From: Burkholderiaceae bacterium
GTDB taxonomy: Bacteria > Pseudomonadota > Gammaproteobacteria > Burkholderiales > Burkholderiaceae_F
Assembly: GCA_035429805.1 (NCBI GenBank)
Contig: DAOMFL010000003.1
Coordinates: forward strand, 7,677-71,676
DNA: 64,000 bases
Direction: 5' to 3'
Shown: piece after piece, positions 236 to 64,000 of the stretch
How positions within the stretch are numbered: position 1 is the stretch's first letter
Layout of the letters: each line of letters opens with the position of its first letter
The notes under the pieces: model-generated
Databases searched by the model: none
Seen by the model: only the letters and a program-made list of their open reading frames with translations
What the model was told of the DNA's origin: nothing
Made by a program: the position numbers and the translations under genes

Positions 236-985
236 TTACCCGCTACGCCGCGCCTCGGCCGATTCGGCCGGAAGCGCCACGGTACCGATCAGCTGTTGCA
301 GGCCGTTGCGGACGGCCGGCGTCATACCCACGAATTCGCAGCCGATGCGCTCGGCATCGCGCGCCCCGATCAGTGGTTCGATGTGACGCACGCGCAGTGC
401 GACCTCGACGCTGCGGCCGCTCGAAGTCTGCAGCGCGCAGCGCTCGATGACCCGATCGACCACGAAGACCGCGCGGTCGGCCGGGCCCTGCAGCGCCAGC
501 CCGCCGAGGCCGATGTCGCTGACCCGCAGCACGTGATGCTGGGACGATCCGGGCGCCCTGGGCACGCGGCACAGCAGGGCCGGTGTCTTCACCCGCAACG
601 ATGTGCGCCGCTGCAGCCTGAGCATCTCGCGCGGCAGCGGCAGGCGGAACGCCGCGCCGCTCGGAGTGAGCGTCTGCGCACGGCCAATGGGGAACTGCAG
701 CTTGACGTTGTCGACGAACCCGACCATGACCAGCGACCCGGCGGCTGCGATCGCCTGCCGGCCCAGGGCATCGACGGTGAGATCGACGATCAGTTCGTCG
801 GCACCCGCATGCACATCGAGCACGCTGCCGACCGCGAAGCCGGTGTCGTCGCCGTAATAGAGCGTGACGAGCAGGTGCTGGTCGCGCAACTGCCGCAGCG
901 CCGAGACGATCTCGACGCGCGACCGCACCGTGAACGGCGCCAGCGCCGGCGACGGCGGCTCCGGGAAGGGCGACGTCATTCCCAC
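236..985 (-). CDS. ycgR: YcgR-type flagellar brake protein with C-terminal PilZ domain (c-di-GMP receptor)
   Basis: 249-aa ORF with YcgR-N plus PilZ layout. PilZ motifs are RRTSLR (RxxxR) and SDIGLGG (DxSxxG variant). AAGGAG lies upstream of GTG 985 / ATG 979. Confidence 0.8.
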   Translation of the reverse strand: MGMTSPFPEPPSPALAPFTVRSRVEIVSALRQLRDQHLLVTLYYGDDTGFAVGSVLDVHAGADELIVDLTVDALGRQAIAAAGSLVMVGFVDNVKLQFPIGRAQTLTPSGAAFRLPLPREMLRLQRRTSLRVKTPALLCRVPRAPGSSQHHVLRVSDIGLGGLALQGPADRAVFVVDRVIERCALQTSSGRSVEVALRVRHIEPLIGARDAERIGCEFVGMTPAVRNGLQQLIGTVALPAESAEARRSG

Positions 986-1022
986 GGCGGCTCCTTGCTG
1001 CCTGCGCGTCGGGCAACGCGCA

Positions 1023-1358
1023 TCAGCGCTGCGCGATCCGGCTGCTGCGGCCGTTCAGCAGCGCCTCGAGCTGCTTCAGCCAGGGTTCGGACAGTTCGCG
1101 GATTTCAGCATCGTCCGCCAGCATGGCGCGCAGCAGGGCCAGTCGCTGACGGCGTCCGATCGGCACTCCGTCGGCCGCCCCGGCCTGCTTCAGCCCGGAG
1201 ATCAAGGCGCGACAGCGATCCTCCTCGCGGCTCACCTGATCCCAGTCGTCGCGTCGCGCCGCATCGAGCATGCGTCGGCTGGACGCCGCGATCGCTTCGT
1301 AGTGATGAATCGTCGACGAGCGCTCGGTGTTCGCACTCGATCCCTCATCCGGCGGCAT
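1023..1358 (-). CDS. fliT: FliT-like flagellar export chaperone / anti-FlhDC factor (start uncertain)
   Basis: The last 111 aa of the 193-aa ORF are helical with a FliT-like pattern (DWDQV..., LLRAMLADDAEIRELSEPWLKQLEALL). ATG 1358 is preceded by AGGGA; alternative ATGs at 1400 and 1424. It lies 37 nt upstream of ycgR on the same strand. Confidence 0.5.
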   Translation of the reverse strand: MPPDEGSSANTERSSTIHHYEAIAASSRRMLDAARRDDWDQVSREEDRCRALISGLKQAGAADGVPIGRRQRLALLRAMLADDAEIRELSEPWLKQLEALLNGRSSRIAQR

Positions 1359-1711
1359 CGCGTCCCTGGTTGCAGCGCCTGCAGTGTCCACGCATTCCAT
1401 GTCCTGCACTGTATCGACCCGCATCACCCGGGCATCGGCGAAGTGGACGGCCAAACATCTGTCTTTTTCTTCGGGCGTCGGCGAGCGATCTGCGCGTCGG
1501 TCGACGCGGCCGATCGCAGCGCCGTGGGGCGAGCGTGCGCCCGCTCGCGGCCGCGGCCCCGTGTAGGGCGAATTCCTACAGGCCCGCGCGAACCGCGCCG
1601 ACACGTGGTCGGGCCGTGCACCGATTCAGTTCGTCCCCGACCGTTCGCACAATGGCACCACTTCGCAACCAACCACGCCCGCCACCGCGGGCCCACGCCG
1701 GAGGGACCCAA

Positions 1712-2062
1712 ATGAGCACGATCGCACCCAGCAACGAACAACTGCTCCAGGAAATCCGCGAGGTCAACCTCGCCTACCTGGTGCTGGCCCAGCACATGAT
1801 CCGCGCCGATAAGGCGCAGGCGCTGTACCGCCTGGGCGTCTCCGAAGAGGTCGCGACGATCATCGACCAGCTCTCGCCGGCGCAACTGATGAAGATCGCC
1901 GGCAGCAACCAGCTGATCCTGCGCTTCCGCTTCGACGACGACATGGTGTGGAACCTGCTGACCAGCCACAGCAAGAGCAAGTCGACCGCCGCCGGCGCCG
2001 CTGTCGCGGGCCTGCACGCCAACATTGTGATGGCCGGACAACTGGCCGACGTCACCGCCTAG
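1712..2062 (+). CDS. flhD: Flagellar transcriptional activator FlhD
   Basis: 116 aa, MSTIAPSNEQLLQEIREVNLAYLVLAQHMIRADKAQALYRLGVSEE..., typical FlhD. GGAGGGA RBS. It is the last part of the spurious 107..2062 ORF. Confidence 0.95.
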   Translation: MSTIAPSNEQLLQEIREVNLAYLVLAQHMIRADKAQALYRLGVSEEVATIIDQLSPAQLMKIAGSNQLILRFRFDDDMVWNLLTSHSKSKSTAAGAAVAGLHANIVMAGQLADVTA

Positions 2063-2087
2063 TCCCATCGTCACGCGGGGAGCTGCC

Positions 2088-2639
2088 ATGCGCATCAAGA
2101 GCATCGTTTCCGAGAGCCGCCAGATCCAGCGCGCGATCGCGCTGATCAAGCTGGGCGCGCGCCTGCAGGTGCTGGAGTCCGAGACCGACCTGAGCTACGA
2201 GCGCCTGCTGCGCCTGTACAAGGAAGTCCAGGGCGAGTCCCCGGCGCGCGGCATGCTGCCGTTCTCGACCGACTGGTTCATGACCTGGCAGCCGAACATC
2301 CATTCGTCGCTGTTCCTGAACATCTACGAGTACCTGGACAAGAGCAGCGAACTGGAAGAGATCGACGCCATCATCAAGGCCTACGAGCTGTACCTCGAGC
2401 AGATCCGCGCGCAGGGGCTGGAGCCGCTGCTGTCGGTGACGCGCGCGTGGCGCCTGGTGAAATTCGTCGACGCCGGCATGGTGACGTTGACGCCCTGCTG
2501 CAAGTGCGGCGGCAAGTTCGTCACGCACACGTTTGAACTGACGAAGGATTACATCTGCGGCCTGTGCGAGCCCCCGGCGCGCGCAGGCAAGGGCAAGGCA
2601 CAGATCGCCACCGCCCCCGCGGACGAGACCGTGCACTGA
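2088..2639 (+). CDS. flhC: Flagellar transcriptional activator FlhC
   Basis: 183 aa, starts 25 nt after flhD. FlhC-type sequence with a C-terminal Cys cluster (CCKCGGKF...CGLC). Confidence 0.95.
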   Translation: MRIKSIVSESRQIQRAIALIKLGARLQVLESETDLSYERLLRLYKEVQGESPARGMLPFSTDWFMTWQPNIHSSLFLNIYEYLDKSSELEEIDAIIKAYELYLEQIRAQGLEPLLSVTRAWRLVKFVDAGMVTLTPCCKCGGKFVTHTFELTKDYICGLCEPPARAGKGKAQIATAPADETVH

Positions 2640-2721
2640 GTGCTGTCGGGCAACCGACGGGTGCCGGCGGAGGCCACGGCCGCCGGCTAGGTTCAAGTGG
2701 CATTCCTTTCCTCCGCTATTT

Positions 2722-2747
2722 GGCCCGGGCAACCGGGCCATTTTTTT
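2722..2747 (+). terminator. Rho-independent terminator after flhDC
   Basis: GGCCCGG-GCAA-CCGGGCC stem-loop followed by a run of 7 T. Confidence 0.7.
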
Positions 2748-2760
2748 GGCAAACGGTCCT

Positions 2761-3151
2761 CGTGTACGCGAGCCCTGCGGGCTCGCACGTGCACTCGGAC
2801 CGGTTACGCGCACTGCGTGCGCGCTCAGGACTGGTGAGTCGGCTGCGCTCCGGAGCGGCCACGCGCTCCGCCGACCAACAACCGCACGGCACTCTCCCTG
2901 CCCCTCTCGCCGGGCGAGATGGAAGAATGCACTCCTGCCTGCGCCCTCCTCGCCCGGCGAGGAGGGAAAGGCGATTCAGGCACTGCGGGGTGTGTCGCGG
3001 GGTGGAGTGCGCGTAGTTGTACTGCGGCGGAGCGCGCGGCCGCTCCGGCGCGCAGCCGACTGACTAGTGTTGAGCGGTTCGCGCAATGCGCGAACCGTGC
3101 CGGAGCGAGTGCACGTGCAAAGGCCGGCTTCCGCCGGCCTTTGCGTACACG
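2761..3151. repeat. 391-bp composite palindromic MITE/REP-like element (two inverted arms of about 190 bp)
   Basis: Bounded by CGTGTACGC ... GCGTACACG. The arms share GCACGTGCACTCG, AGTCGGCTGCGC.CCGGAGCGGCC.CGCGCTCCGCC and CTCGCCGGGCGAG blocks in inverted orientation. A third related copy lies at 30375-30548. Confidence 0.8.
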
Positions 3152-3163
3152 AGCGACGCTGCG

Positions 3164-3949
3164 CTACGCGTAGAGCGGTATCTCCAGCTCCCGCACCAGC
3201 GCCGCGTTGACGTAGGCATGAAGCGCAAGGCGCTCGAGGTCGCCGAGGCCGACGAACGCGACGCCGAGCGTCCTGTCGGTGGAACCGACCTCCGGCTTGC
3301 GGACCGGTCGCGCGCGCGCCTCGATCAGGACTTCCTGGTCGGCGACGTGCACACGGAACACGACGCGGATCTCGTCGTAGAAGACAGCGAGTTCATCCTG
3401 CAGCGTGATCGCCGCGCCGGCGGTGGAGAGGTCGTGGATCAGACCCTTGGCGAAGCGGCCGTTGGCCGCCTGGCCCGGATACACCATGCACTGCAGATCG
3501 CTGCGCACGCGACGCGCGGCACGCAGGTTGCGCTTCTCGACCTGGCGCGTGCCAACCCAGCCGATGTGCAGATACGGGAACGGTGCCGTGCAGACCTTCA
3601 GCAGCGGCGCCACGAACTCGTACACGTACTCGCCGGAGAAGCTGCGGAACCGGTACAAGCGGCCCTCGCGGATGAAGATCTGCGACTCGTCGGGCGCGGT
3701 GACCAGCAGCGACTTGCCCTCGTGCACACCGATCAGCTTGACGGTCGCCGCGGACTGCAGGCTTTCGCCGTCGAGCCACATCTTCATCTGCCGCCACGAG
3801 GCGATCTCGCGGTTCGATGCGTGGCGGTCCGCCGCCGCCATCGATCCCGATCCGACCACTGTCGGCACCGTGATCGTTCCGAGCGTCGCCGGACCGGTAG
3901 GACGGGCCAGCGTATTGAATCCGGTAGCAGTGGGTTCGGTGAGGTCCAT
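3164..3949 (-). CDS. Second YcgR-like PilZ-domain protein
   Basis: 261 aa from ATG 3949 (GGGAAG upstream). PilZ motifs RNLRAARRVR (RxxxR) and DLSTAG (DxSxxG). An N-terminal YcgR-like domain is plausible. Confidence 0.7.
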   Translation of the reverse strand: MDLTEPTATGFNTLARPTGPATLGTITVPTVVGSGSMAAADRHASNREIASWRQMKMWLDGESLQSAATVKLIGVHEGKSLLVTAPDESQIFIREGRLYRFRSFSGEYVYEFVAPLLKVCTAPFPYLHIGWVGTRQVEKRNLRAARRVRSDLQCMVYPGQAANGRFAKGLIHDLSTAGAAITLQDELAVFYDEIRVVFRVHVADQEVLIEARARPVRKPEVGSTDRTLGVAFVGLGDLERLALHAYVNAALVRELEIPLYA

Positions 3950-4114
3950 GGCAGGCTTCCCCGCGACAGTCGACGAGTCCCAAGTTTGCGGTACTCGACG
4001 CGAGGCGGGTGCGCCGAGAACGCCGGAGTCGATCGGCCAATTCATGCGCTCGGCCGACCGCGTTCGGGTCAGCGGCCGCAGGTCGGCTCAATCCGCCGAA
4101 AAGCAGGGCTTCAG

Positions 4115-6217: not shown

Positions 6218-6221
6218 CGCG

Positions 6222-6518: not shown

Positions 6519-6635
6519 GCCGACGTCCTCCGACAGACGGAAATGAGTCTACCCCGCACGCGCCCGGCCCTCTCTCGAAGGCATCAACACGACGCGGCCG
6601 GCGCATAATGGCCCTGGCCTGGGCGCTCAAGCCGG

Positions 6636-7310: not shown

Positions 7311-7369
7311 GCCGCCGCGCTGTCCGGCACTGCTATCCTGCCCGGCCCACTCCCGGAATCCCCGCCCGC

Positions 7370-9067: not shown

Positions 9068-9079
9068 CGCGGCAGCAGC

Positions 9080-9424
9080 TCAGCCGACCTCGATCAGCTC
9101 GACCTCGAAGACCAGCGTCGCATTCGGCGGAATCACGCCGCCGGCACCGAATTCGCCGTAGCCCAGCCGCGGCGGAATCGTCAGCTTGCGCAGGCCACCG
9201 ACCTGCATGCCTTCCACCCCCTCGTCCCAGCCGGCAATCACCTGCCCGGCGCCGAGGCCGAAGGAAAAGGGCTGACCGCGGTCGCGGCTCGAATCGAACT
9301 TGCGGCCGTCGGTGAGCCAGCCGGTGTAGTGCACGGTGACGTCCTGTCCCGAACGCGCCTTCGCCCCGGTGCCGACGCGCACTTCTTCGTACTGCAGGCC
9401 ACTCGCAGTGGTGGTCAAGCTCAT
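9080..9424 (-). CDS. FKBP-type peptidyl-prolyl cis-trans isomerase
   Basis: 114 aa, ...[14 protein letters not shown]...[20 protein letters not shown]...[12 protein letters not shown]. Confidence 0.9.
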
Positions 9425-9699
9425 CGTTCTTTCCTCTCCGTTTCCAGTCCGGTGCGCAGCAATCTCTCGACCAGCTCGTTGAGCGGCTGGCCGGTTCGCC
9501 TAGACGTTTCGTGCAGCTCCTGCAGTAGCTCGCCCGGCAACTTGACCGCGAACGGTACCAGTCCGGCGGCGCGGTCGCGCTCGCGTTGCGCGCGCCGGTC
9601 CCCGGCCGCAGCCGTGTCGAACCGCGGCCCGGACTGGCGCAGCGCGTTGGCGATCTTCAGCCCCTTGCGTTTCTCGAGCTCCGTCTTCTTCATCGTCAT
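9421..9699 (-). CDS. Small basic protein with a possible ribbon-helix-helix C-terminal half
   Basis: 92 aa ([13 protein letters not shown]...). ATGA overlaps with both the upstream (9696-9699) and downstream (9421-9424) genes. [35 protein letters not shown] is RHH-like. Confidence 0.45.
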
Positions 9700-10676
9700 C
9701 GCAGATACTCCCGAGCGTGGTCCTGCGCATAGGCGCGCAGGATCGACTCGATGTCGCGGTCCGCGGTGAACCCGAGCGCAAGCGCGCGCGCCGCATCGAA
9801 GCGCGCCGGCCAGCCGTAGACGATCTTCGCGATCCGCTCGTCGGGCACGAAACGCACACGCTGCACGGCCGCTTCGCCGCCGACCTTGCTCAGTGCATCG
9901 AGCATCTCGCGTACCGACACGGTGAGGCCCGGCAGGCTGACCGCGCGCTGCCGGCCCCAGGCCACGGACGGCGACTCGTGCGCATGGATCAGGTTGCGCA
10001 CGGCCTGCGCCGGCGACATGACCCATAGCCGCGTGTCGGGCCCGACCGGACACAGCGCCTCCTCACCCGCCAGCGGTTCGCGCAGGATGCCGCTGGCGAA
10101 GCTCGACGCCGCCGCATTGGGCTTGCCCGGCCGCACGACGATTGTCGGCAGCCGCACCGCGCGCCCGTCGAGGAAGCCGCGCCGCGTGCAATCGCCCATC
10201 AGCAGTTCGCCGACCAGCTTCTGCACGCCATAGCTCGACTGAGGCGCCGGGATCGTCTGATCCTGCACCACGTCCGGCAGGTCGCCCCCGAACACCGCGA
10301 CCGAGCTCGCGAACACGAAGGTCGGCGGCGCGAGTTGCGCGCGGCAGGCGTCGAGCAGCGCGCGCGTACCGTCGACATTGACGCGCATGCCGAGGTCGTA
10401 GTCGGCCTCGGCCGCGCCCGACACCACCGCCGCCAGGTGGAACACGCTGTCGGCGCCAGCCATCGCTTCGGACACGACGGCGCGATCGGCAAGGTCGCCC
10501 TGGACGTAGCGCACGCGCGGGTCGGAGAACTCACCGGCCGCGCGCTGGGTGTCGAGCGCGGTGATACCGGTGATGGCGCGCGGCTCGCCGTCCCGCTGCA
10601 GCGTGCCGCGCTCGACCAGGGCACGGATCAGGCGCTGGCCGAGGAACCCCGACCCGCCGGTAATGACGACCTTCAT
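9696..10676 (-). CDS. NAD-dependent epimerase/dehydratase family protein (extended SDR)
   Basis: [16 protein letters not shown] Rossmann motif. ATG 10676 overlaps the stop of the upstream gene (ATGA). Confidence 0.85.
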   Translation of the reverse strand: MKVVITGGSGFLGQRLIRALVERGTLQRDGEPRAITGITALDTQRAAGEFSDPRVRYVQGDLADRAVVSEAMAGADSVFHLAAVVSGAAEADYDLGMRVNVDGTRALLDACRAQLAPPTFVFASSVAVFGGDLPDVVQDQTIPAPQSSYGVQKLVGELLMGDCTRRGFLDGRAVRLPTIVVRPGKPNAAASSFASGILREPLAGEEALCPVGPDTRLWVMSPAQAVRNLIHAHESPSVAWGRQRAVSLPGLTVSVREMLDALSKVGGEAAVQRVRFVPDERIAKIVYGWPARFDAARALALGFTADRDIESILRAYAQDHAREYLR

Positions 10677-11461
10677 GACGTGCTGCACTCCTCTCGCGTC
10701 CGCTGTCCGGCCCGCAACGGCCGGAACACGGCGGTGTCATCGTAGTCAATCGGGCTGGCGCTCCTACTCCAGCCCGGCACGCCGAGCACAGGCAGAGGCA
10801 GGAACGCCGAGGTATCGAAATTTTCGTCGAGCCGCCTGGCCAACCGAGCATCCACCTCGGCTTGCGGCGTATCCGCCCGCAGCTCGACGACGAGCGCGTG
10901 TGCGGTGATCGACTTGTAGGGGGCGACGAGCTTGTCCATCAGCGCATGTCCGAAGACGAGCACACGGACCGAATCCCAAATGTCTCGGTGCTCGACGAAC
11001 GCGGCCTTCCAGCGGCGCTCGCGCAGCAGCGCAGGCAGCACCGGATCGGCGGTCACCAGCAGAGCGCCGTTCTCGTCGAACAGGGTTGCGGCGTCGCGCA
11101 GCGGGCCGCGCCGGCCACCGATGCCGTCGCGCTCGATCGCGGCGGCATGCAATGCGTTGAGGCGCGCTTTGGTGCGCGGAAACGCGAGCCATGCGAGTGC
11201 GTTGAAGAGATCGTGCCGGTTGAGTCGCGTCGGAACGCGGCCGGTCGCGGCAATGTGCGACTCGTAAGCGCGGCCCGCCGGGGCGTCGTCGGCCGCGACG
11301 AATTCGATCGGCCAGCCGGAGGCTGTTGTGACGTTTCGCTCAGCGGCGCGGCGGGTCAGCTGAACGATGGGCTCGCGCGTCGCTACGCCTCCGCGCAGCG
11401 CAGCCACCGCGCCGAACCACGGCTGCGACCAGTCGACCGCGCTCAGGCTGCCAGCGTCCAC
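10673..11461 (-). CDS. DUF3025-like protein
   Basis: 262-aa ORF with coding bias. Family assigned from memory of DUF3025 sequences. GTG start at 11461 overlaps the pyrC end by 19 nt, so the start is uncertain. Confidence 0.5.
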
Positions 11462-56314: not shown

Positions 56315-56410
56315 CTTCCCGCCCGCCGCTCGGGCGGACGGGCTCCCGCAGTGGCCGGACGGCAGTACCGCCAATGCGCCATGGTCGCGTATTGATGGCA
56401 TCCTTGCGGC

Positions 56411-57115
56411 ATGACGCCGCTGAGTTCGTTCGAAACCGGGTCTGCCGAGCAGTCCGGCAGCTTCCGCGGTGCGGTTCGGGCGACGATGTGGCCGACGCGT
56501 TCGCTGGTTTCGAAGGAACGCTGGTTCGATGAGCTGTACGTGTGGACCGAGGGTGGCAGCGCCAGCACGACCCAGCGCGCGCGCATCCAGCTCGAGGCGA
56601 TCAAGGACGCCTTCCTTTGGCTGGAGTACGACCTCATCGAACGGATCGGCGTGACGATCTCGTTCGGAACGATCGAGCGCGCGATCGATCCGCTGACGGC
56701 CCTGTTCGAAGACAACGTGCTGCTGGCGCACCGCCTGTATGTGCTCGTCAGGGGAGCGCCGCAGCGACTGCGCTCGCGCTACCGGCTGCGCGGATTCGCC
56801 GACATGCTGCGCGGCCTGAAGATTGCCGTCGGCTACCGGCTGACGGCGCCGCGAGTCAGCATGGAACTGAGCGGCGTCGACCTGGTGCAGCCGACATTCG
56901 CGAAAGTCCTTGCACCGCCCACTGCACGCGCCGAAACCTGGAGCGACCTCGCGCTCGAAGTGCGGGCGCTGGGACTGGACACACGATCGACGATCGTCGG
57001 CGCTGTCGAGACACGACCCCAGCGCGACAGCGCAGTCAATGCGGGCTTTGAACTGGCACAGGGCCGTGCCGTGCGCCAGCCTTATGCTCCGCCCCCATTA
57101 CCAACAAAAAGCTGA
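56411..57115 (+). CDS. Degenerate EAL-like domain protein (stand-alone, catalytic residues not conserved)
   Basis: 234 aa. Collinear with EAL landmarks at correct spacing but mutated: DELYVW for EALxRW, VTISFG for VNLS, VLVRG for ExxE, VGYR for DDFG, FAKV for KID, GAVE for EGVE. QG is retained. Confidence 0.55.
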   Translation: MTPLSSFETGSAEQSGSFRGAVRATMWPTRSLVSKERWFDELYVWTEGGSASTTQRARIQLEAIKDAFLWLEYDLIERIGVTISFGTIERAIDPLTALFEDNVLLAHRLYVLVRGAPQRLRSRYRLRGFADMLRGLKIAVGYRLTAPRVSMELSGVDLVQPTFAKVLAPPTARAETWSDLALEVRALGLDTRSTIVGAVETRPQRDSAVNAGFELAQGRAVRQPYAPPPLPTKS

Positions 57116-57189
57116 CACCGAGCTTGGCTGTGACGACCGATTTGGCAGAAAATTCAAGGACGTTCGCGACCCAGGAGCGCGAACCTGCC

Positions 57190-57921
57190 ATGGCCGTCCC
57201 CGAACCACGCCCCGAACTCGGTACGCATCAGGTCGAACTCGACCCCACCGTCGATCCGCTGAGCCGCTTTGGCTCACGCGTTCGCGCGCTGGTGTGGCCG
57301 ACGCGCACGCTGGTGGGGGCCGAACGCTGGTTCGACGAGCTCTACGTCTGGACCGCCGATTTCGAGCCGGACCGCTCGCTGCGCGCGCAGATCCAGCTGG
57401 CCGCGCTGGAACACGCCTTCATCATGCTCGAGCACGAGCGCGTCGAGCGCGTCGCCGTCACGATTTCTTTCGGTTCGGTCGAACGCTCGCTCGAGGCATT
57501 GGTGCGCGCTCTCGACTCTCATCGCCTGACTGCGCACCGGCTGTCTGTACTGCTGCGCGGCGCGATGGAACGGATGCGCTGGCCGTACCGCGTGCGCGAG
57601 TTCATCGATCTGCTGCGCAGCTACCAGGTGCCGGTCGGATACCGCTTCGCGGAACCGCGCGCCAGCATGGAAATGAGCGCGATCGACTTCGTCGCGCCCG
57701 ACTTCGCCAAGATGCTGGCCCCGATCTCCGTGCGCGAAGAGACCTGGTTCGAGATGTCTCGCGAAGTGAACGCCCTCGGCCTCACGCGTGAGACCTTCGT
57801 GCTGGCTGGCATCGAGCGCGAAGAACAACTCAGGCTCGCCAAGCAGACCGGCTTCGTGCTGGGCCAGGGCCGGGCGCTGAAGAAGCCCTACTTTCCGCCA
57901 CGGGTGATGCGGCCGCGCTGA
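57190..57921 (+). CDS. Degenerate EAL-like domain protein, paralogue of 56411..57115
   Basis: 243 aa from ATG 57190 (AGGAG RBS; TTG 57124 alternative). Roughly half of positions are identical to the upstream gene, with the same degenerate motifs (DELYVW, VTISFG, VGYR, FAKM, AGIE, QG). Confidence 0.55.
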   Translation: MAVPEPRPELGTHQVELDPTVDPLSRFGSRVRALVWPTRTLVGAERWFDELYVWTADFEPDRSLRAQIQLAALEHAFIMLEHERVERVAVTISFGSVERSLEALVRALDSHRLTAHRLSVLLRGAMERMRWPYRVREFIDLLRSYQVPVGYRFAEPRASMEMSAIDFVAPDFAKMLAPISVREETWFEMSREVNALGLTRETFVLAGIEREEQLRLAKQTGFVLGQGRALKKPYFPPRVMRPR

Positions 57922-58160
57922 CACAGGCTGTCGGTCCTGCAAAGATAGCCGCCAACTGCCGGCACTTCGCCGGCCAATTCGTTTCATCCTCGCCGGGCTG
58001 CGCGGAATTACCGAAGCCGAAGCGCTCATTTCGGCCCTTCCGAATACCGCATACCCGGTAGTGTGCCTTCCTGCACGCGTTGCACTCACTCGATCGGCGA
58101 AGTCCGGCGGGCGTGCGCGATCAATTGACTTAATCGGGACGCCCCGACCAAAGGAAGGCA

Positions 58161-58724
58161 ATGAAACTGACTCGCTTCACACTTGCTGTCGTAGCAGCCG
58201 CGGCGACCGCTGTTCCGCTGGCGGCACACGCGGCGTCCAGTTCTCAAACGGGCGCAGGCTCGATCAACACAACGGTAAATCTCAATTTCAGCGTCACGAT
58301 TCCGCGTTACATCTTCCTGCGGGTCGGAAGCGCAGCCAGCCTCGATACGCTGACTTATGCGCCCACGGTAGCGCAGATGCTGGCATCGACCCCTGTTCAG
58401 GCGACCGGTGGCGACACCGGTGGCGGCTCCGACGTCACTTACCAGGTCTTCGGCAACGCCGGCAACATGACGCTCGCGGCATCGAACCTGACGCAACTCA
58501 CGTCGGGGGGCAACAACATCCCGAGTTCGACCCTGTCAGTCACGACACAGGCGGGCAGCGTGACGGCTCCCGCATTCAATGGCAGCACGGCGCTGACAGC
58601 GAGCGCGGCCGGCATTGTCAATCAGACGGGCTCCTGGCGCTACGTGTGGACCAACCCGGCGGCGACGGTGTATGCCGCCGGTACTTACACGGGAACGGTC
58701 ACCTACACGCTGTCTGCGCCGTAA
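58161..58724 (+). CDS. Secreted pilin-like subunit 1 (candidate major subunit)
   Basis: 187 aa, AGGAAGG RBS, signal peptide ...LAAHA|AS. Alternating N-terminal strand TVNLNFSVTI; C-terminus GSWRYVWTNPAATVYAAGTYTGTVTYTLSAP. Thr/Ser/Gly/Ala-rich with no Cys. Confidence 0.6.
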   Translation: MKLTRFTLAVVAAAATAVPLAAHAASSSQTGAGSINTTVNLNFSVTIPRYIFLRVGSAASLDTLTYAPTVAQMLASTPVQATGGDTGGGSDVTYQVFGNAGNMTLAASNLTQLTSGGNNIPSSTLSVTTQAGSVTAPAFNGSTALTASAAGIVNQTGSWRYVWTNPAATVYAAGTYTGTVTYTLSAP

Positions 58725-58777
58725 ACGGCCAACGCGCCAGGCGCTCTTTGCGGCGGCCGCTGCCGCAGGAAATTCGG

Positions 58778-58808
58778 GCATCGGCCGGCGTGATCCGCCG
58801 GCCGATGC
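58778..58808 (+). promoter_or_regulatory. 13-bp perfect stem-loop after subunit gene 1 (possible attenuator or mRNA-stability element)
   Basis: GCATCGGCCGGCG-TGATC-CGCCGGCCGATGC followed by ATTT. Located in the 120-nt gap between subunit genes 1 and 2. Confidence 0.5.
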
Positions 58809-58844
58809 ATTTGCAGACCCAGGAAGACTTTCGCCAGCATCGTC

Positions 58845-59417
58845 ATGCCAAACCGCTTCGCATCACGTGTCCTCGCGATCGCAGCATTGCTGCTCGCGGG
58901 TCCGTGCGCGCACGCGGCGTCCAATACCGCAAGTGCCGCTTCGGGCACGCTGTCGACGTCGGTCAACCTGCAGTTCAGCATCACGATCCCACGCTTCGTT
59001 TTCCTTAGAGTGGGTGCAGCGGCATCGGTCAACACGCTGACCTACGCGCCGACGGCCGCACAGATGGCGTCAGGCACCGGAGTGCTCGCGACGGGAGGTG
59101 ACACAGGGGCCGGCAACTCCGATGTCACGGTGCAGGTCACCGGAAACACCGGGAACGTGACACTGACCGCCGTGACCGGCAACCCGAACCTCGTGAGCGG
59201 CGGCAACACCATGCCCTGGTCGACCCTGACGGCGACCAGCCCGACCGGTTCGATCACGGCACCGCCTTTCAACGCAGGCAGCACCGTCCTCACCGCCGTG
59301 GGCGGTGTCGTCAACCAGACCGGCTCCTGGCGCTACACGTGGACCAACCCGCCGAGCACCGTCTACGCGGCCGGAACCTATTCCGGCACGGTGACCTACA
59401 CTGCCGCCGCGCCTTAG
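58845..59417 (+). CDS. Secreted pilin-like subunit 2 (paralogue)
   Basis: 190 aa, signal peptide ...PCAHA|AS. SVNLQFSITI strand; C-terminus GSWRYTWTNPPSTVYAAGTYSGTVTYTAAAP. More than half of positions match subunit 1 by eye. Confidence 0.6.
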   Translation: MPNRFASRVLAIAALLLAGPCAHAASNTASAASGTLSTSVNLQFSITIPRFVFLRVGAAASVNTLTYAPTAAQMASGTGVLATGGDTGAGNSDVTVQVTGNTGNVTLTAVTGNPNLVSGGNTMPWSTLTATSPTGSITAPPFNAGSTVLTAVGGVVNQTGSWRYTWTNPPSTVYAAGTYSGTVTYTAAAP

Positions 59418-59427
59418 GCCGCGACTC

Positions 59428-60099
59428 ATGGTGAATCCGGTGGGGACCGAATTCAAGCGACGACTTCTGCTCGTATACGCGGCGGCAGCTTGTGCAGCGG
59501 CGCTTGTCCTCGTTCCCCCTCCCGCGGAGGCCTACACGGTCAACATCACCGCCGGGTCCCGCACCTTGTACTTGCAGGTCGGCGTTGGCACGTTCACAGG
59601 CACTCTCCAGGGCGGCGGCACTCCCGGCGTGAACGCGACGGTCAACGTCGTGTCAGTGAATGTTCCCGCGGCGCAGGTCGGCACCGGCGCGGCACAGGCG
59701 ATGACGACCAACAGCACGGCAGCCAACAGTTTCTGGGACAACTTCGCCTTTTGCAACCCGCCTGCGCAACTCTACGTCGGGGGTTTCTATCGCGTGCCGA
59801 GCGGCGCTGGTGCCGGCGCCGGTGCGACGCTCACCGCCAACGTTCCAGCGACTCTCAGCAACGGCAGTGGCGGCACCATTCCCTTTTCGCAGATCTCCTG
59901 GACCAGTTCCGGCAACAGCGACAGCGGTGCGCAGCCGTTCCCGGCAGGAACGTTCGTTGGAGGTTCGCTTCAGACGATCGGTACGATCGCCCGTAATCAG
60001 TGGGCGGAAAGCTGTCTGACGTTCTCATACGCCAATACGGCCGTGGTCCCTGCCGGCACGTATACGGGAACCGTGGTCTACACGCTTTCCGCACCGTGA
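59428..60099 (+). CDS. Secreted pilin-like subunit 3 (larger, divergent paralogue with two Cys)
   Basis: 223 aa, signal peptide ...PPAEA|YT. YTVNITAG/TLYLQVGVG strands, GAGAGAGA stretch, Cys in FAFCNPP and AESCLTF. C-terminus PAGTYTGTVVYTLSAP. Confidence 0.55.
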   Translation: MVNPVGTEFKRRLLLVYAAAACAAALVLVPPPAEAYTVNITAGSRTLYLQVGVGTFTGTLQGGGTPGVNATVNVVSVNVPAAQVGTGAAQAMTTNSTAANSFWDNFAFCNPPAQLYVGGFYRVPSGAGAGAGATLTANVPATLSNGSGGTIPFSQISWTSSGNSDSGAQPFPAGTFVGGSLQTIGTIARNQWAESCLTFSYANTAVVPAGTYTGTVVYTLSAP

Positions 60100-60551
60100 T
60101 GATGCGACTCGCCTTGCTGGCCTGTGCCGCCCTGACGTCGTTCGCGGCTGAGGCGGCGACCTATCGGGTCGAGGAGGCAGGGACGTTTCCACAGGAATCG
60201 ACCGCCCCGATGCGGTGGCGCCAGATTGCGCCGTCACGGGGCGGCGACAACACGGTCGAAGGCACGACGACTGTGAACGTGCGGCTCAATCTGGCCCCGT
60301 GGCAGAACCGGGTGGGACGGCTGTTCATGGTGCTGCCTGAACAACCCCTCACGCCGGTGCGCGTCAGCTGGTCGACCCAGGGTCGATTGCTTTCAGGACA
60401 GCTGGTTTCCGGGCACCGGGCGCTGGTGTATGCCGGCCCGATCACGATGCCTCTGCTGGAGGAAACGCTGGTGCTGAAGTTCGAGGCCGATGGCACCCGG
60501 CTCAACAGCGCGCAGCGGCTCCAGTTTCACTTTGAGATTGATATCGACTGA
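60099..60551 (+). CDS. Secreted 150-aa protein of unknown function in the fibre cluster
   Basis: ATG 60099 overlaps the preceding TGA (TGATG). Signal peptide ...FAAEA|AT. Beta-rich, TTTVNVRLNL strand. No shared C-terminal pilin motif. Confidence 0.5.
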   Translation: MMRLALLACAALTSFAAEAATYRVEEAGTFPQESTAPMRWRQIAPSRGGDNTVEGTTTVNVRLNLAPWQNRVGRLFMVLPEQPLTPVRVSWSTQGRLLSGQLVSGHRALVYAGPITMPLLEETLVLKFEADGTRLNSAQRLQFHFEIDID

Positions 60552-60552
60552 C

Positions 60553-61359
60553 ATGCAGGCTTCGATCATTCGCATCGTGGTGCGGGCAGCGGCCGCCATC
60601 GTCATCGGGGGCATTTCCTGCGGCGCGGCTGCGCAGGGCTTCGCGGCGCTGGTGGCGCCGCCCCGATTCGAATTGCACGCCCGACCGGGCGAGCGGTTGC
60701 GCGACGTGATCGAGATAACGAACGGCGCGAAGCAGCCTGCCCGCTATCGCTTTCGCACCGCCGACTGGACGCTGGGAGCCGACGGGCAGATCGTCGTCAT
60801 CGATCAACTGGCTCCGAACAGCTGCCGGCCCTGGGTCGCTATCGAGCGCAGCAGCGCCGAGGTGCCGCCCGGCGGCCGTCTGCGCTATCGGTTCGAGATC
60901 ACGACTCCCGCCGACGCACCCCCTGCCGAGTGCCGTTTCGCCGTGCTGATTGAGGGCGACGAACCGGCGATTGCGGGCGGCGACAATTTCAAACTGCCGG
61001 TGATGGGGCGCATCGCCATCGTCGTCTACGTCACTGTGGGAGACGCCGCGCCGCAGATTGAGATCGAGCGCTCTGGCGTGGTGACCTTCAACGGCCAGCG
61101 CACTCCCATCATCCAGGTCCGCAATACCGGAACCGCGCACGGTCGCCTGAGCGGCTTCCTGACCGGCGTTGACGCGCAGGGTCGACGCTGGGACATTTCT
61201 CCGTCGTCGCTGCCGATCCTGCCCGGCGAGTCACGCGCCATCGCGCTGTCGGCTGCCAACGACCGGAATGAGCCGGTACCGGTGCCCCTGCCAATCACCA
61301 TCCGCGGCACGCTGGAATGGACAGGGGGACGCCTGCCGTTCGAGCACCGCTTCGACTGA
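60553..61359 (+). CDS. PapD-like two-domain periplasmic chaperone candidate
   Basis: 268 aa, starts 1 nt after the previous stop. Signal peptide ...GAAAQG. Domain 1: LVAPPRFELHARPGERLRDVIEITN...ECRFAVLIEG. Domain 2: GRIAIVVYVTVG...IIQVRNTGTAHGRLSG...LPGESRAIAL. Confidence 0.5.
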   Translation: MQASIIRIVVRAAAAIVIGGISCGAAAQGFAALVAPPRFELHARPGERLRDVIEITNGAKQPARYRFRTADWTLGADGQIVVIDQLAPNSCRPWVAIERSSAEVPPGGRLRYRFEITTPADAPPAECRFAVLIEGDEPAIAGGDNFKLPVMGRIAIVVYVTVGDAAPQIEIERSGVVTFNGQRTPIIQVRNTGTAHGRLSGFLTGVDAQGRRWDISPSSLPILPGESRAIALSAANDRNEPVPVPLPITIRGTLEWTGGRLPFEHRFD

Positions 61360-61364
61360 TTTCA

Positions 61365-63317
61365 ATGCGGGCCTCCGCGGTAACGCTGCTGCTTGCAGCC
61401 ATCGCCGGGCTGTGCCCGATGACCGCACGCTCCCAGGACAAGGCGCAGGCGACGGAGGACTTGGCGCCGTCCTATCAGGATCGCCTGATCGATGACGGCA
61501 GACTCGCGATCGACCTCTGGGATGACTACGCACCGCTAAATAACACCGACGGTTTGCCACGCGGACTGAGACTCGATGGTCTCTGGTCGCAGACCCGCCG
61601 TAACGGAATCAGCACAACGCAGTCCGGACTCGGCATCGGCGCCTTCCTTGCGACGCCGCAGTACGGTTCGTTCAGCTTCGAGGGCCTGCTCACGAACGGC
61701 GAAGACACATCGATCGCCACGCTGTGGCAACGCGACATGCCTTTCGATGGCGGGTGGCGTGCCAGCAACGGCCTCGGCATGCTGAATTCGCCCGCGATCG
61801 ACCTCGTGCGGTTTCAGCCGCGCATTTTCCTCGCCACGACCCCGATGCTGGGCGCCGTCACCGACTGGCGTGGACCGCAGTCGACGCAAGTAGTCGGCGG
61901 CTTCGGCGAACCGGGCACCTACCAAGGTGCCTACATTCCACAGTTTCGCCGCCTAGGCGGTCAGCTTTCCAACCTCGGCGCGCAGCGGGCTGTGGATCCC
62001 AACTGGAGCATTGGATTCCAGTACGCCGGCGCCAACGACGTCACGAGTGGATTCCAGTTGCTGCCGAGTGCAACGCCGTTTAGCACGCGCTCGCTGTACC
62101 TGGGAACATCTCGCCAGGACGCGACAAGCCGGTTCCAGTTCAACGCGATCGAAAGCCAGAACAGTGTCACTGAGTCACGACACGGCGCCTGGTTCGACGG
62201 ATACCAGCAGAGCGGACGCCTGGCGCAGTCGTTCGGGCTGTTCTACCTCGATCCCACTCTGGCCTGGGGCAACCAGCCGGTGGCGAACGACATGCGCGGC
62301 GGCTACTACCGCCTCTTTTTCGCCAGCATGCGCTGGCAGTGGGATGCCGGCGCCGACTACGTCGCGCCCTTGCGCAACGAGTCGGGGTCCGCAACAACCT
62401 TTCTCAACGGCAGCCTGCGCCACCAGTTGCTGAGTGACGTCAGCGCCGGGGTTGGCGCCAATGTCCGACTGGCCGACTCCACGGCGTGGCAGGGGTTCGC
62501 CTACATCGAGCGGGTCGATCGGCTGATGACTGGGCGCGTGCAGCTGAACCAGGCAGAAGACGGCGCCCGCCGCGAATCGCTGGTCACATTCAACCAGACC
62601 TGGAGCATGCCGGTGGGCTCACGGCTGAACACGACGGTCGGTGCGGGTCGCTATCACGGCGACCAGGTTGCCCCCTCGAACCAGCTGATGCTCGCCGCTT
62701 ACGGAGGCGGCGACATCGCCCGCAACCTGGCGCTCGATCTGAACGTGCAATGGACCCGCTGGTACGACGTCACAGCTGAGCCGACGAGCACTACCGGCAG
62801 CCTTGTAATGACGTGGAGCATCCTGCCGCAACTGCGGCTCATCGCGACCGCCTACCGCAGCCAGGCGACAGCACGGCAGCCGCTCACTGTCACGTCACCG
62901 CTCAATCCGACGATTCCTCTGACAAACACAAGCCTCAACGACACCGGCGCATTCCTGGTCCTGCGGTTCGAGTCCCGCGCGGGCAGCCTTGGAGGTCCGC
63001 TCGGCGGCCCGCCGGGCGCCGGCGCCGGCCGCGTCCTCGGTAAGGTGTTCCTCGACACCAACGACAGCGGCCGACTCGAGGCCGGGGAACAGGGAGCGGC
63101 CAACGTGACCGTGGTTCTCGATGGCCGCTACACGACGCGCACTGACGGAGAAGGCCGCTTCGAGTTTCCGGCCGTCGCATCCGGCCGGCATCAGATCACG
63201 GTCGTGCCCGACAATCTTCCGCTGCCCTGGGTGCTGGCCAATGACGGGCGCTTCGAAGTCGACGTCCCGGTTCGTGACTCGGTGAGCGTCGACATCCCGG
63301 CTCGACGCATGCGCTGA
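61365..63317 (+). CDS. Large outer-membrane beta-barrel with Gly/Pro linker and a C-terminal Cna-B/carboxypeptidase-regulatory-like beta-sandwich domain
   Basis: 650 aa from ATG 61365. Signal peptide, 20 or more amphipathic strands ending in aromatic residues, ...GAFLVLRF, linker GSLGGPLGGPPGAGAG, then GKVFLDTNDSGRLEAGEQGAANVTVVLDGRYTTRTDGEGRFEFPAVASGRHQITV. Confidence 0.6.
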   Translation: MRASAVTLLLAAIAGLCPMTARSQDKAQATEDLAPSYQDRLIDDGRLAIDLWDDYAPLNNTDGLPRGLRLDGLWSQTRRNGISTTQSGLGIGAFLATPQYGSFSFEGLLTNGEDTSIATLWQRDMPFDGGWRASNGLGMLNSPAIDLVRFQPRIFLATTPMLGAVTDWRGPQSTQVVGGFGEPGTYQGAYIPQFRRLGGQLSNLGAQRAVDPNWSIGFQYAGANDVTSGFQLLPSATPFSTRSLYLGTSRQDATSRFQFNAIESQNSVTESRHGAWFDGYQQSGRLAQSFGLFYLDPTLAWGNQPVANDMRGGYYRLFFASMRWQWDAGADYVAPLRNESGSATTFLNGSLRHQLLSDVSAGVGANVRLADSTAWQGFAYIERVDRLMTGRVQLNQAEDGARRESLVTFNQTWSMPVGSRLNTTVGAGRYHGDQVAPSNQLMLAAYGGGDIARNLALDLNVQWTRWYDVTAEPTSTTGSLVMTWSILPQLRLIATAYRSQATARQPLTVTSPLNPTIPLTNTSLNDTGAFLVLRFESRAGSLGGPLGGPPGAGAGRVLGKVFLDTNDSGRLEAGEQGAANVTVVLDGRYTTRTDGEGRFEFPAVASGRHQITVVPDNLPLPWVLANDGRFEVDVPVRDSVSVDIPARRMR

Positions 63318-63323
63318 GCCAGG

Positions 63324-64000
63324 TCATGCCGCCCACGGTCGCGCGGCGGCGTGCACAGCCCGCAGGTGCCTTTCGATCTCCCGGGTGTCGACACCCTGGC
63401 GGACCGCGATGCGCTCGCGCGCCAGGGCACTCAGCCCGGGCGCGTTGGTCAGCTGTTCAAGGAGCCCGGCCGCCACCGACAGGTCATTGAGCTCGCCCTG
63501 GAGGTCCTGCAGGCGCGCCAGCGCCTCGACATATCGTTGCGTCGCTTCCCGAGGCAGTGCGACCGAGCACACATCGAGTGCGTAGCGCAGCCGCTTGGCG
63601 AGGATGCGCAGCCGGTGCCGTTCTTCGGAAGACAGCGTCGCGAAGTCCTCAGCGCCGGCAAACAGCCGCCTGTGCGCTCTGGCCAGTGCGCGCGCGGCAA
63701 GCTTCCGCAGCGTGCGGCCCGCGGGCGGCGGCGTCATCATCCATGCCTGCAATCGCAGCGCGAGCCGCGCGTAGCGAGCCGTTGCCAGTGCCGCGAGCAC
63801 CCGGGACCGCGCGGCTTCGCGCTGCACCGCGGCCTGCCGGAGCATCTGCTTCGTGTCGCCATCGAGCGCGGGCGGCGTGCCGGAGAGCAGCATCGGCAGC
63901 GTCTGCGTCAGCAGCACATCGGCGTCGCGCGCGGCACCGAGCAGCCGCGCGGCCCAGCGGAGTTCGGCGGCGAGCGTCTTCGGAAAGTCGCGGTGCCTGC
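63324..64000 (-). CDS. CHAD-domain protein, C-terminal part (5' end beyond the window)
   Basis: The frame stays open to the window edge (...RHRDFPKTLAAELRWAARLLGAARDADVLLTQ...). CHAD-like repeats HRLRILAKRLRYALD. The listed M at 63917 is an internal GTG. Confidence 0.7.
   Translation of the reverse strand, partial: RHRDFPKTLAAELRWAARLLGAARDADVLLTQTLPMLLSGTPPALDGDTKQMLRQAAVQREAARSRVLAALATARYARLALRLQAWMMTPPPAGRTLRKLAARALARAHRRLFAGAEDFATLSSEERHRLRILAKRLRYALDVCSVALPREATQRYVEALARLQDLQGELNDLSVAAGLLEQLTNAPGLSALARERIAVRQGVDTREIERHLRAVHAAARPWAA

What the first reader, a model, noticed from the sequence alone, without database searches (positions are those of the whole stretch)
56411..57921. Tandem stand-alone degenerate EAL-like proteins directly upstream of the fibre cluster (YdiV-like switch candidates)
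Two paralogous proteins of about 235-245 aa (roughly half identical) follow the EAL-domain landmark order and spacing. Most metal and catalytic positions are replaced: DELYVW for EALxRW, ISFG for NLS, VRG/LRG for ExxE, VGYR for DDFG, AK(V/M)L for KID, GAVE/AGIE for EGVE. Only QG is kept. They have no sensor or GGDEF domain. The best-known stand-alone degenerate EAL protein, YdiV of E. coli/Salmonella, does not hydrolyse c-di-GMP; it binds FlhD and shuts down FlhD4C2. This window also carries flhDC and two PilZ brakes. The EAL-like pair sits 240 nt upstream of a putative surface-fibre operon. This suggests a protein-protein switch between motility and attachment.
Basis: partly seen in the sequence, partly recalled or inferred. 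Interest (0 to 1): 0.6.

Follow-up and report, generated by a model that had tools for sequence, protein, structure and literature searches.

The report
Dead EAL-fold regulator pair beside fibre operons
Two neighbouring genes encode catalytically dead relatives of c-di-GMP-degrading (EAL) enzymes, from a small family that standard domain databases miss; they probably act as regulators next to a swap-site for adhesive-fibre operons, in a soil bacterium that has lost its flagella but kept the flagellar master regulator.

Summary
Two tandem paralogues, EALa (56411-57115) and EALb (57190-57921, likely start), are 49% identical. EALb's predicted structure matches only EAL domains in the top 50 PDB hits, although Pfam and NCBIfam do not recognise either protein. 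At least six of the roughly ten catalytic or c-di-GMP-binding residues are replaced, so neither is a phosphodiesterase.

The family is tiny (58 clusters among 1.84 billion representatives) and confined to uncultured soil Burkholderiaceae. One duplication produced the pair. EALb then diverged fast and became more conserved than MtnA or DksA.

The genes belong to a conserved backbone (dksA-OMP-mtnA-aldolase-EAL ... CYTH-CHAD). The slot after EALb holds interchangeable surface-fibre operons in 33-34 of 39 tandem loci. Single-copy relatives have none.

The YdiV-like reading is only partly supported. flhDC and two YcgR-like PilZ genes are present. However, this genome and every tandem-pair genome tested lack flagellar structural genes, so a flagellar motility/attachment switch cannot apply as written. 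The residue-loss pattern also differs from YdiV, and FlhD's YdiV-contact residues are not conserved.

Best reading: non-enzymatic regulators, target unknown, plausibly tied to fibre expression.

The parts
56411..57115 (+). EALa: 234-aa stand-alone degenerate EAL-fold protein (pI 9.7, 25 Arg). This is the faster-evolving paralogue.
   Evidence: ORF. 49% identical to EALb. Orthologues in 41 loci, median 71% identity. Forms a monophyletic A clade.
57190..57921 (+). EALb: about 243-aa stand-alone degenerate EAL-fold protein (the ORF is open from TTG 57124). It has a conserved, predicted-disordered N-terminal tail and is ultra-conserved across relatives.
   Evidence: AF2 model and Foldseek, top 50 hits all EAL domains. 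Start inferred from homologues and AGGAG. Median 88.5% identity against 72% for MtnA. Long stem, then very short branches in the tree.
56387..56404 (+). Conserved motif GCGTATTGATGGCATCCT ending 6 nt before the EALa ATG. It may be an extended -10 promoter (TGn-CATCCT), which would give a leaderless or near-leaderless mRNA.
   Evidence: Alignment of 37 upstream regions, window included. The promoter reading is inference only; the sigma-70 scan found no canonical promoter.
57958..57974 (+). GC-rich hairpin (GCCGGC-ACTTC-GCCGGC) followed by CAATTCGTTT, 37 nt after the EALb stop. Weak terminator candidate.
   Evidence: number of sites not above shuffles. Orthologous loci also fold into hairpins after EALb, several with T-runs.
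58161..63317 (+). Context: six-gene chaperone-usher-like fibre operon (three pilin-like subunits, a 150-aa protein, a PapD-fold chaperone at 60553-61359, and a 666-aa outer-membrane protein). It occupies the variable slot between EALb and the CYTH-CHAD gene.
   Evidence: No Pfam hits. The chaperone's AF2 model has pLDDT 87.6, and its best Foldseek hits include WxLIP, CsuC, CfaA, FimC and PapD. It is the only cluster of this type in the genome.
1733..2639 (+). Context: flhD (1733-2047) and flhC (2088-2639), kept in a genome without flagellar structural genes.
236..4045 (-). Context: two YcgR-type PilZ genes (236-985 and 3164-4045) flanking flhDC.
   Evidence: Pfam PilZN/PilZNR + PilZ.

Best explanation
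EALa and EALb are catalytically dead, stand-alone EAL-fold proteins (pseudo-phosphodiesterases). They belong to a small family specific to uncultured soil Burkholderiaceae.

They cannot hydrolyse c-di-GMP, because the two-metal site is gone. They most likely work as non-enzymatic regulators that bind a protein partner and/or a small anionic ligand in the remodelled pocket at the top of the barrel. That pocket is rich in Arg and aromatic residues.

One duplication produced the pair. EALb took on a new, tightly constrained role, and the two may act as a heterodimer, as EAL domains commonly dimerise.

The pair has its own transcription unit at the edge of a conserved backbone. It directly faces a slot in which different adhesive-fibre or pilus operons have been exchanged repeatedly. 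The most likely output is control of surface-fibre expression.

Shown: fold, loss of catalytic residues, family range, duplication history, conservation, synteny.
Inferred: regulator function, heterodimer, link to fibres.
For: Fold and loss of catalysis:
- The top 50 Foldseek PDB hits are all EAL domains.
- Metal and catalytic residues are replaced in two independent alignments. The replacements are fixed across the family.

Family range:
- No other domain is present.
- The family is tiny and isolated: 52 hits among 5.8 billion proteins and 58 clusters among 1.84 billion representatives, none a canonical EAL.
- All 75 genomic loci are uncultured Burkholderiaceae/beta-proteobacterial MAGs.

Selection and history:
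- EALb has median 88.5% identity across 41 loci, against 72% for MtnA, 75% for DksA and 71% for EALa. It is higher than MtnA in all 31 paired comparisons.
- The A and B clades are sisters. The B stem is 0.95 changes per site, followed by branches of at most 0.06.

Pocket:
- Family-invariant residues sit at the C-terminal ends of the predicted barrel strands, where EAL domains bind substrate: WPT, DELYVWT, T.SFG, LRG, GYR, FAK..AP, GIE, QG.
- Both proteins are basic (pI 9.1-9.7) with 11-13% Arg.

Synteny:
- 33-34 of 39 tandem-pair loci have a fibre or pilus operon in the slot after EALb. There are 18 SCPU chaperone-usher clusters (30-66% identical to each other), 6 novel fibre clusters placed directly, and 9 with a type IV minor-pilin operon followed by the fibre cluster. 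In 24 loci the operon lies directly downstream on the same strand.
- In one single-copy genome the neighbour is a PAS-GAF-GGDEF-EAL-REC protein plus an HDOD protein.
Against: - No partner or ligand has been identified, and nothing functional could be tested.
- The fibre link rests on one clade, so it reflects few independent events. It could simply reflect an integration hotspot next to a backbone gene.
- None of about 20 single-copy loci has fibre genes. The ancestral neighbours are mtnA/aldolase and CYTH-CHAD.
- The fibre chaperone family has more than 2,900 members, far beyond the range of the EAL-like family, so the fibres do not need these proteins.
- Three tandem loci have nothing in the slot.
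- Hairpins after EALb argue against co-transcription.
- Conserved pocket residues would also fit an unknown enzymatic activity.
Confidence: 0.6

Rival explanations
1. YdiV/STM1697-like anti-FlhD4C2 factor. One or both proteins bind FlhD and block or redirect the master regulator. In this flagella-less lineage that regulator would control non-flagellar genes.
For: - flhD and flhC are intact in the window and fliA lies just upstream.
- FlhD is kept in nearly all flagella-less relatives.
- Within the GTDB family, presence of the EAL-like gene against presence of FlhD gives 21 ++, 2 +- (both MAGs 85-87% complete), 4 -+ and 10 --. By genus, 9 of 9 EAL-positive genera have FlhD, against 3 of 10 EAL-negative genera.
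- Precedents are YdiV and STM1697, which are stand-alone and have lost the catalytic residues (PMC3510510, PMC5622320).
Against: - Similarity to YdiV does not go beyond the fold, and the residue-loss pattern is different.
- The FlhD positions that contact YdiV are changed: K8 to Q, Y11 to R, E59 to G.
Four FlhD-positive genomes lack the family.
- flhDC lies about 55 kb away, which is only backbone synteny.
- No flagellar regulon is left to repress.
Confidence: 0.2
2. Nucleotide second-messenger receptor. Like the degenerate EAL domains of FimX and LapD, the pocket binds c-di-GMP (or pGpG, another cyclic dinucleotide, or polyphosphate) without hydrolysis, and passes the signal to a partner.
For: - Invariant residues cluster at the canonical ligand site.
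- The proteins carry many conserved Arg and aromatic residues and are basic.
- The genome has five canonical GGDEF-EAL-type proteins and two PilZ proteins.
- A GGDEF-EAL-REC neighbour occurs in one relative.
- YdiV keeps a groove that bound phosphate and glycerol (PMC3510510).
Against: - The Arg of EALxR and the Gln of YQP, used by c-di-GMP-binding EAL domains, are both Trp here.
- All metal ligands that bridge the phosphate are lost.
- About 15-17 residues of the helical segment after the EAL motif are missing.
Confidence: 0.2
3. An enzyme with new chemistry that is functionally tied to the upstream mtnA-class II aldolase pair (methylthioribose or DHAP-shunt salvage).
For: - mtnA(-aldolase)-EAL-like order and strand are conserved in most loci across at least 9 genera, including distant single-copy ones.
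- TIM-like barrels often evolve new activities.
- Conserved polar residues line the pocket.
Against: - A 96-nt gap with a hairpin and a separately conserved promoter-like motif lies before EALa.
- dksA and an OMP gene are equally syntenic, so this looks like backbone order.
- At least 6 loci have the gene away from mtnA.
- No acidic metal-binding cluster is present.
- No known salvage step needs such a protein.
Confidence: 0.06

Closest known systems
YdiV (RflP) of E. coli/Salmonella and STM1697 of Salmonella (EAL-like anti-FlhD4C2 factors; PMC3510510, PMC5622320)
   Same: Stand-alone proteins of about 240 aa with an EAL fold. Most of the roughly 10 catalytic or c-di-GMP-binding residues are lost, and the Arg of EALxR is absent. 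flhDC is present in the same genome.
   Different: - No detectable sequence relationship beyond the fold. YdiV passes the Pfam EAL threshold (33.2 bits); these proteins do not (17.5 bits, C-terminus only).
- Different positions are lost. YdiV keeps N and ExxE; these keep the E of EAL, the second E of EGVE and QG.
- These proteins are basic and Arg-rich, and occur as a tandem duplicated pair.
- The host lacks flagella.
- The FlhD contact residues are not conserved.
Degenerate EAL receptor domains of FimX and LapD (PDB 3hv9, 4fou, 3pjt; all among the Foldseek hits)
   Same: Non-catalytic EAL fold used for signalling that controls pili or adhesins.
   Different: FimX and LapD EAL domains sit inside multidomain proteins. 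From my own knowledge, they keep the c-di-GMP-contacting Arg and bind the ligand. Here the proteins are stand-alone and that Arg is Trp.
Fimbria-linked EAL proteins (from my own knowledge, not tested here: MrkJ and FimK of Klebsiella, PA2133 and PvrR next to P. aeruginosa cup clusters, SfaY/PdeY-type proteins of E. coli)
   Same: An EAL-family gene encoded next to a chaperone-usher fimbrial operon.
   Different: Those proteins are mostly catalytically competent phosphodiesterases that lower local c-di-GMP. This pair is catalytically dead, and it belongs to the chromosome backbone rather than to the fimbrial operon.

Membership tests
EAL domain superfamily (fold level) | TIM-like (beta/alpha) barrel of EAL domains | tested here: met
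   AF2 model of EALb (pLDDT 74.6). The top 50 Foldseek PDB hits are all EAL domains, E 1e-9 to 1e-7, TM about 0.6.
EAL domain family (Pfam PF00563, sequence level) | Score at or above the gathering threshold (31.3 bits) | tested here: not met
   EALb scores 17.5 bits on residues 226-255 only. EALa has no hit. The profile search found no canonical EAL among 1.84 billion representatives. hhalign against canonical EALs gives E = 6e-4, probability 28%.
Active c-di-GMP phosphodiesterase (class I EAL) | Complete set of metal-binding and catalytic residues (E of EAL, R, N, ExxE, DD, K, E of EGVE, Q) | tested here: not met
   R becomes W76, N becomes T113, ExxE becomes L143/G146, DD is absent, and the first E of EGVE becomes A228 (EALb) or G (EALa). 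Only E72, possibly K196, E231 and Q248 remain.
YdiV/RflP-STM1697 anti-FlhD4C2 factors | Sequence homology to YdiV/STM1697 | tested here: not met
   No NCBIfam or Pfam-level relationship. YdiV is not in the top 50 fold hits. The residue-loss pattern differs in the joint alignment.
YdiV/RflP-STM1697 anti-FlhD4C2 factors | FlhD present, with a conserved YdiV-contact surface (K8, Y11, D12, L19, E59 of E. coli FlhD) | tested here: inconclusive
   FlhD and FlhC are present. The contact positions read Q, R, E, V, G (contact list from PMC3510510). A co-evolved interface cannot be excluded.
YdiV/RflP-STM1697 anti-FlhD4C2 factors | Physical binding to FlhD and inhibition of FlhD4C2 | not testable with these tools
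   The structure tool takes single chains only, and no cultured host exists.
c-di-GMP-binding degenerate EAL receptors (FimX/LapD type) | Kept c-di-GMP contact residues (Arg of EALxR, Gln of YQP) and ligand binding | tested here: not met
   Both positions are Trp (W76, W58). Binding itself is not testable here.

The most novel reading that the evidence does not exclude
In a clade of soil Burkholderiaceae that lost flagella, the flagellar master regulator FlhD4C2 (kept together with FliA and two YcgR-like PilZ proteins) has been rewired to control adhesive-fibre or pilus operons. In this reading the duplicated, neofunctionalised dead-EAL protein EALb is its dedicated anti- or co-factor. It would be an independently evolved analogue of YdiV, acting at a chromosomal slot where fibre operons are swapped in and out.
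Probability: 0.12. Interest if true: 0.75.

Novelty: new variant of a known kind. Interest (0 to 1): 0.45.

Why it matters
Stand-alone, catalytically dead EAL proteins are known mainly from enterobacteria (YdiV, STM1697). This is an independent lineage that domain databases cannot see, with a different pattern of lost residues. That shows the EAL barrel has been recruited as a non-enzymatic module more than once.

Several features make the pair a good entry point for studying how c-di-GMP and flagellar regulatory parts are re-used after flagella are lost, and how interchangeable adhesin operons are controlled:
- EALb is more conserved than housekeeping enzymes.
- The pair arose by a single duplication in a flagella-less clade.
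- That clade keeps FlhDC, FliA and YcgR-type genes.
- The pair sits at a hotspot for fibre operons.

The practical limit is that every carrier is an uncultured MAG.

Tried and rejected
- Pfam and NCBIfam scans of both proteins and of the six downstream genes gave essentially nothing.
- The PDB sequence-profile search gave only a marginal C-terminal match to 2r6o.
- Global hhalign failed. Local hhalign is reliable only for the C-terminal 141 columns. The position of the KID lysine differs between hhalign, MAFFT and the strand register, so K196 is reported as uncertain.
- The exhaustive profile search did not bridge to canonical EALs.
- A sigma-70 scan found no promoter, and terminator hits were not above the shuffled expectation.
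- A sigma-28 (FliA) promoter scan of the whole window found nothing.
- PDB sequence searches with the chaperone and pilin candidates found nothing; the fold search was needed.
- Literature searches found no work on this family or on FlhDC in flagella-less Comamonadaceae/Burkholderiaceae.
- Decaying pseudogenes: rejected because of strong conservation.
- Integral part of the fibre operon: rejected because the operon family is far more widespread and is exchanged independently.
Full report
**1. What is there**

The + strand carries two adjacent ORFs, 56411-57115 (234 aa, EALa) and 57124-57921 (265 aa from TTG, EALb). Homologues of EALb start close to its internal Met23. ATG 57190 has an AGGAG 12 nt upstream, so the likely product is 243 aa. 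The two proteins are 49% identical over 211 residues, E = 4e-74. Both are basic (pI 9.7 and 9.1), contain 11-13% Arg and have no Cys.

**2. Is it an EAL fold?**

By sequence the signal is barely detectable.
- Pfam EAL hits only residues 226-255 of EALb, at 17.5 bits against a threshold of 31.3. EALa gets no hit.
- NCBIfam finds nothing.
- A family profile against PDB sequences gives only a marginal C-terminal match to the EAL protein 2r6o.

By structure the answer is clear. The AlphaFold2 model built from a 30-sequence alignment has mean pLDDT 74.6. The low values lie in the N-terminal 45 residues and one loop. The model shows alternating strands and helices. Its top 50 Foldseek matches in the PDB are all EAL domains: TBD1265, MorA, LapD, FimX, BlrP1, YkuI, DosP, RocR-type and others, at E 1e-9 to 1e-7 and TM about 0.6.

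**3. Which residues are left?**

I aligned the family with six canonical EAL domains. Five come from this genome's own GGDEF-EAL proteins. I used hhalign (E = 6e-4, reliable over the C-terminal 141 columns). I also used an independent MAFFT E-INS-i alignment that included E. coli YdiV. The two methods agree on the following.

| Canonical motif | EALb |
|---|---|
| YQP | VW58-P59 |
| EALxR | E72-L-Y-V-W76 (Glu kept, Arg lost) |
| Asn | T113 |
| ExxE | L143..R145-G146 |
| DD of DDFG | absent (VGYR) |
| EGVE | A228-G-I-E231 (metal-binding first Glu lost, second kept) |
| QG | Q248-G249 (kept) |

- The catalytic Lys may correspond to K196, judged by strand register (strand 194-198). The sequence alignments disagree here, and K196 is not conserved in distant members.
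- About 15-17 residues of the helical segment after the EAL motif are missing.
- At least six of the roughly ten residues needed for catalysis and c-di-GMP binding are gone. The list of ten follows PMC3510510 and the references in it.
- The replacements are fixed throughout the family, so phosphodiesterase activity can be excluded with high confidence.
- YdiV keeps a different subset (N, ExxE) and still passes the Pfam threshold at 33.2 bits. The two lineages therefore degenerated independently.

The family's invariant residues are WPT, WFDELYVWT, T.SFG..ER, LLRG, VGYR, PDFAK..AP, AG(I/L)E and QG. They sit at the C-terminal ends of the predicted barrel strands, where EAL domains hold their substrate. 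This suggests a conserved but remodelled pocket. That is an inference.

**4. How big is the family and who has it?**

- The word-indexed search of 5.8 billion proteins found 52 relatives, none with a Pfam domain.
- The exhaustive profile search of 1.84 billion representatives found 58 clusters, many of them fragments, and no canonical EAL protein.
- Among 61 related genomes, 23 have the family. All 23 are in the same GTDB family, and none of 24 genomes from other families of the order has it.
- All 75 loci found in GTDB species representatives are MAGs labelled uncultured beta-proteobacterium or Burkholderiaceae, largely from soil and peat.
- No literature on the family was found.

**5. Evolution**

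A maximum-likelihood tree of 112 sequences shows one duplication. The A and B clades are sisters (support 98/87), each is monophyletic (100/99 and 100/100), and single-copy genes fall outside. The B stem is long (0.95 changes per site), and branches inside the B clade are very short (at most 0.06).

Across 41 tandem loci the median identity to the window's proteins is:

| Protein | Median identity |
|---|---|
| EALb | 88.5% |
| DksA | 75% |
| Aldolase | 74% |
| MtnA | 72% |
| EALa | 71% |

EALb exceeds MtnA in all 31 paired comparisons. This is the pattern expected from neofunctionalisation followed by very strong constraint, as seen in proteins locked into interactions.

**6. Genomic context**

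The conserved order is dksA - OMP - mtnA - (class II aldolase) - EAL-like on one strand, with a convergent CYTH-CHAD gene on the far side. I surveyed the slot between EALb and CHAD in 39 tandem-pair loci with informative sequence.

| Content of the slot | Loci |
|---|---|
| SCPU-pilin / PapD / usher cluster, same strand | 18 |
| SCPU gene on the opposite strand (short contig) | 1 |
| Novel fibre cluster of this window, directly downstream | 6 (window included) |
| Convergent type IV minor-pilin operon (fimT-pilVWX-pilY1), then the fibre cluster | 9 |
| Nothing (CHAD adjacent) | 3 |
| Unidentified genes | 2 |

- The SCPU clusters are confirmed by Pfam and are only 30-66% identical to each other.
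- None of about 20 single-copy loci shows fibre genes. There CHAD is adjacent, or other genes intervene. Examples are an RND pump, and in one genome a PAS-GAF-GGDEF-EAL-REC protein plus an HDOD protein.
- The window's fibre cluster is a real chaperone-usher-like system. The 268-aa protein at 60553-61359 models at pLDDT 87.6 as two Ig-like domains. Its best PDB matches include WxLIP, CsuC, CfaA, YadV, CupB2, FimC and PapD.
- That chaperone family has more than 2,900 members in several families of bacteria. The fibre system is therefore much more widespread than the EAL-like family and does not depend on it.
- In this genome it is the only cluster of its kind, and the type IV minor-pilin operon lies on another contig.
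- The fibre genes have lower G+C (0.63-0.68) than the backbone genes (0.71).

The EAL pair is thus a backbone element bordering a hotspot where surface-fibre operons are exchanged.

**7. Transcription signals**

- A 96-nt gap with a GC-rich hairpin separates the aldolase gene from EALa.
- A motif, CCGCATTGATGGCATSCT, is conserved at a fixed 6 nt before the EALa ATG in one subgroup of loci. A related TATTCTGGGTATGTT lies about 55 nt upstream in the other subgroup. This reads as an extended -10 element and may give a leaderless EALa mRNA. That is inference.
- A hairpin follows EALb at 57958-57974. Orthologous loci also have hairpins there, several with T-runs.
- The pair is probably its own transcription unit.

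**8. The FlhDC idea**

The window does contain flhD (1733-2047), flhC (2088-2639), two YcgR-type PilZ genes (236-985 and 3164-4045) and a CheY-like gene. fliA lies just upstream of the window.

The genome is 97.7% complete but has no flhA, flhB, motA, motB, fliC, fliF, fliG, fliM, fliP or fliR. FHIPEP (FlhA) is absent from all 16 tested genomes of the genus and from the two other genera that carry the tandem pair. The six tested genera with a single-copy gene, and other relatives, have it. The duplication therefore coincides with a flagella-less clade that kept FlhDC.

Presence of the family correlates with presence of FlhD in the GTDB family:

| | FlhD present | FlhD absent |
|---|---|---|
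| EAL-like present | 21 | 2 |
| EAL-like absent | 4 | 10 |

By genus the figures are 9 of 9 against 3 of 10.

The FlhD residues that contact YdiV (K8, Y11, D12, L19, E59; PMC3510510) read Q, R, E, V, G here. Nothing excludes a co-evolved interface, but nothing supports one either. A flagellar motility/attachment switch cannot be the function in this organism.

**9. Verdict**

The proteins are a new, database-invisible lineage of dead EAL-fold proteins.

| Reading | My confidence |
|---|---|
| Catalytically inactive | about 0.9 |
| Non-enzymatic regulators (best explanation) | about 0.6 |
| Tied to the neighbouring fibre operons | about 0.35-0.4 |
| Act on FlhD4C2 in the manner of YdiV | about 0.2 |
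| Nucleotide or polyanion receptor | about 0.2 |
| Novel enzyme linked to mtnA | about 0.06 |

The readings overlap, so these figures do not sum to 1. The finding is a new variant of a known kind and is of moderate interest. The more surprising by-product is the flagella-less clade that keeps FlhDC, FliA and YcgR-type genes.

Noticed in passing
window 236-4713, plus contig C3:6454-7152 just upstream of the window: flhD, flhC, fliA, two YcgR-type PilZ genes and a CheY-like gene are kept, but the 97.7%-complete genome has no flagellar structural, export or motor genes. All 16 tested genomes of the genus, and two sister genera, also lack FlhA. This looks like an orphan flagellar regulatory module in a flagella-less clade.
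   Followed up: partly
window 57922-63323 and the equivalent slot in loci L037-L090: The interval between EALb and the convergent CYTH-CHAD gene is a hotspot. Across species it holds a novel PapD-like fibre operon, divergent SCPU chaperone-usher operons, a type IV minor-pilin operon plus the fibre operon, or nothing.
   Followed up: yes
window 60553-61359: The chaperone of the fibre operon gets no Pfam hit but models confidently as a two-domain PapD/CsuC-like chaperone. Its family has more than 2,900 members, mostly annotated as hypothetical.
   Followed up: partly
window 56387-56404: A conserved motif (CATTGATGGCATSCT) lies at a fixed 6 nt before the EALa start codon, and there is no Shine-Dalgarno sequence. 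It may be an extended -10 promoter giving a leaderless mRNA.
   Followed up: partly
L024 (G035:C5) 4772-9509: In one flagellated relative, the single-copy EAL-like gene is followed on the same strand by a 1239-aa PAS-GAF-GGDEF-EAL-REC protein and an HDOD protein.
   Followed up: partly
L026 / L079 (G001:C16), about 10161-10905: The EALb orthologue matches in two overlapping pieces in different frames. This is either a frameshifted pseudogene or an assembly error in that MAG.
   Followed up: no
window 57190-57330 (EALb residues 23-50 of the long ORF): The N-terminal tail of EALb (ELDPTVDxLSRFGSRVR) is predicted to be disordered but is conserved in all B orthologues. It may be a short docking motif.
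   Followed up: no
window 63324-63998 (- strand) and the same position in most loci: A CYTH-CHAD (triphosphate-tunnel / polyphosphate-binding) gene is the conserved convergent neighbour of the EAL-like gene, and is directly adjacent in many single-copy loci. A functional link to these Arg-rich proteins has not been explored.
   Followed up: no
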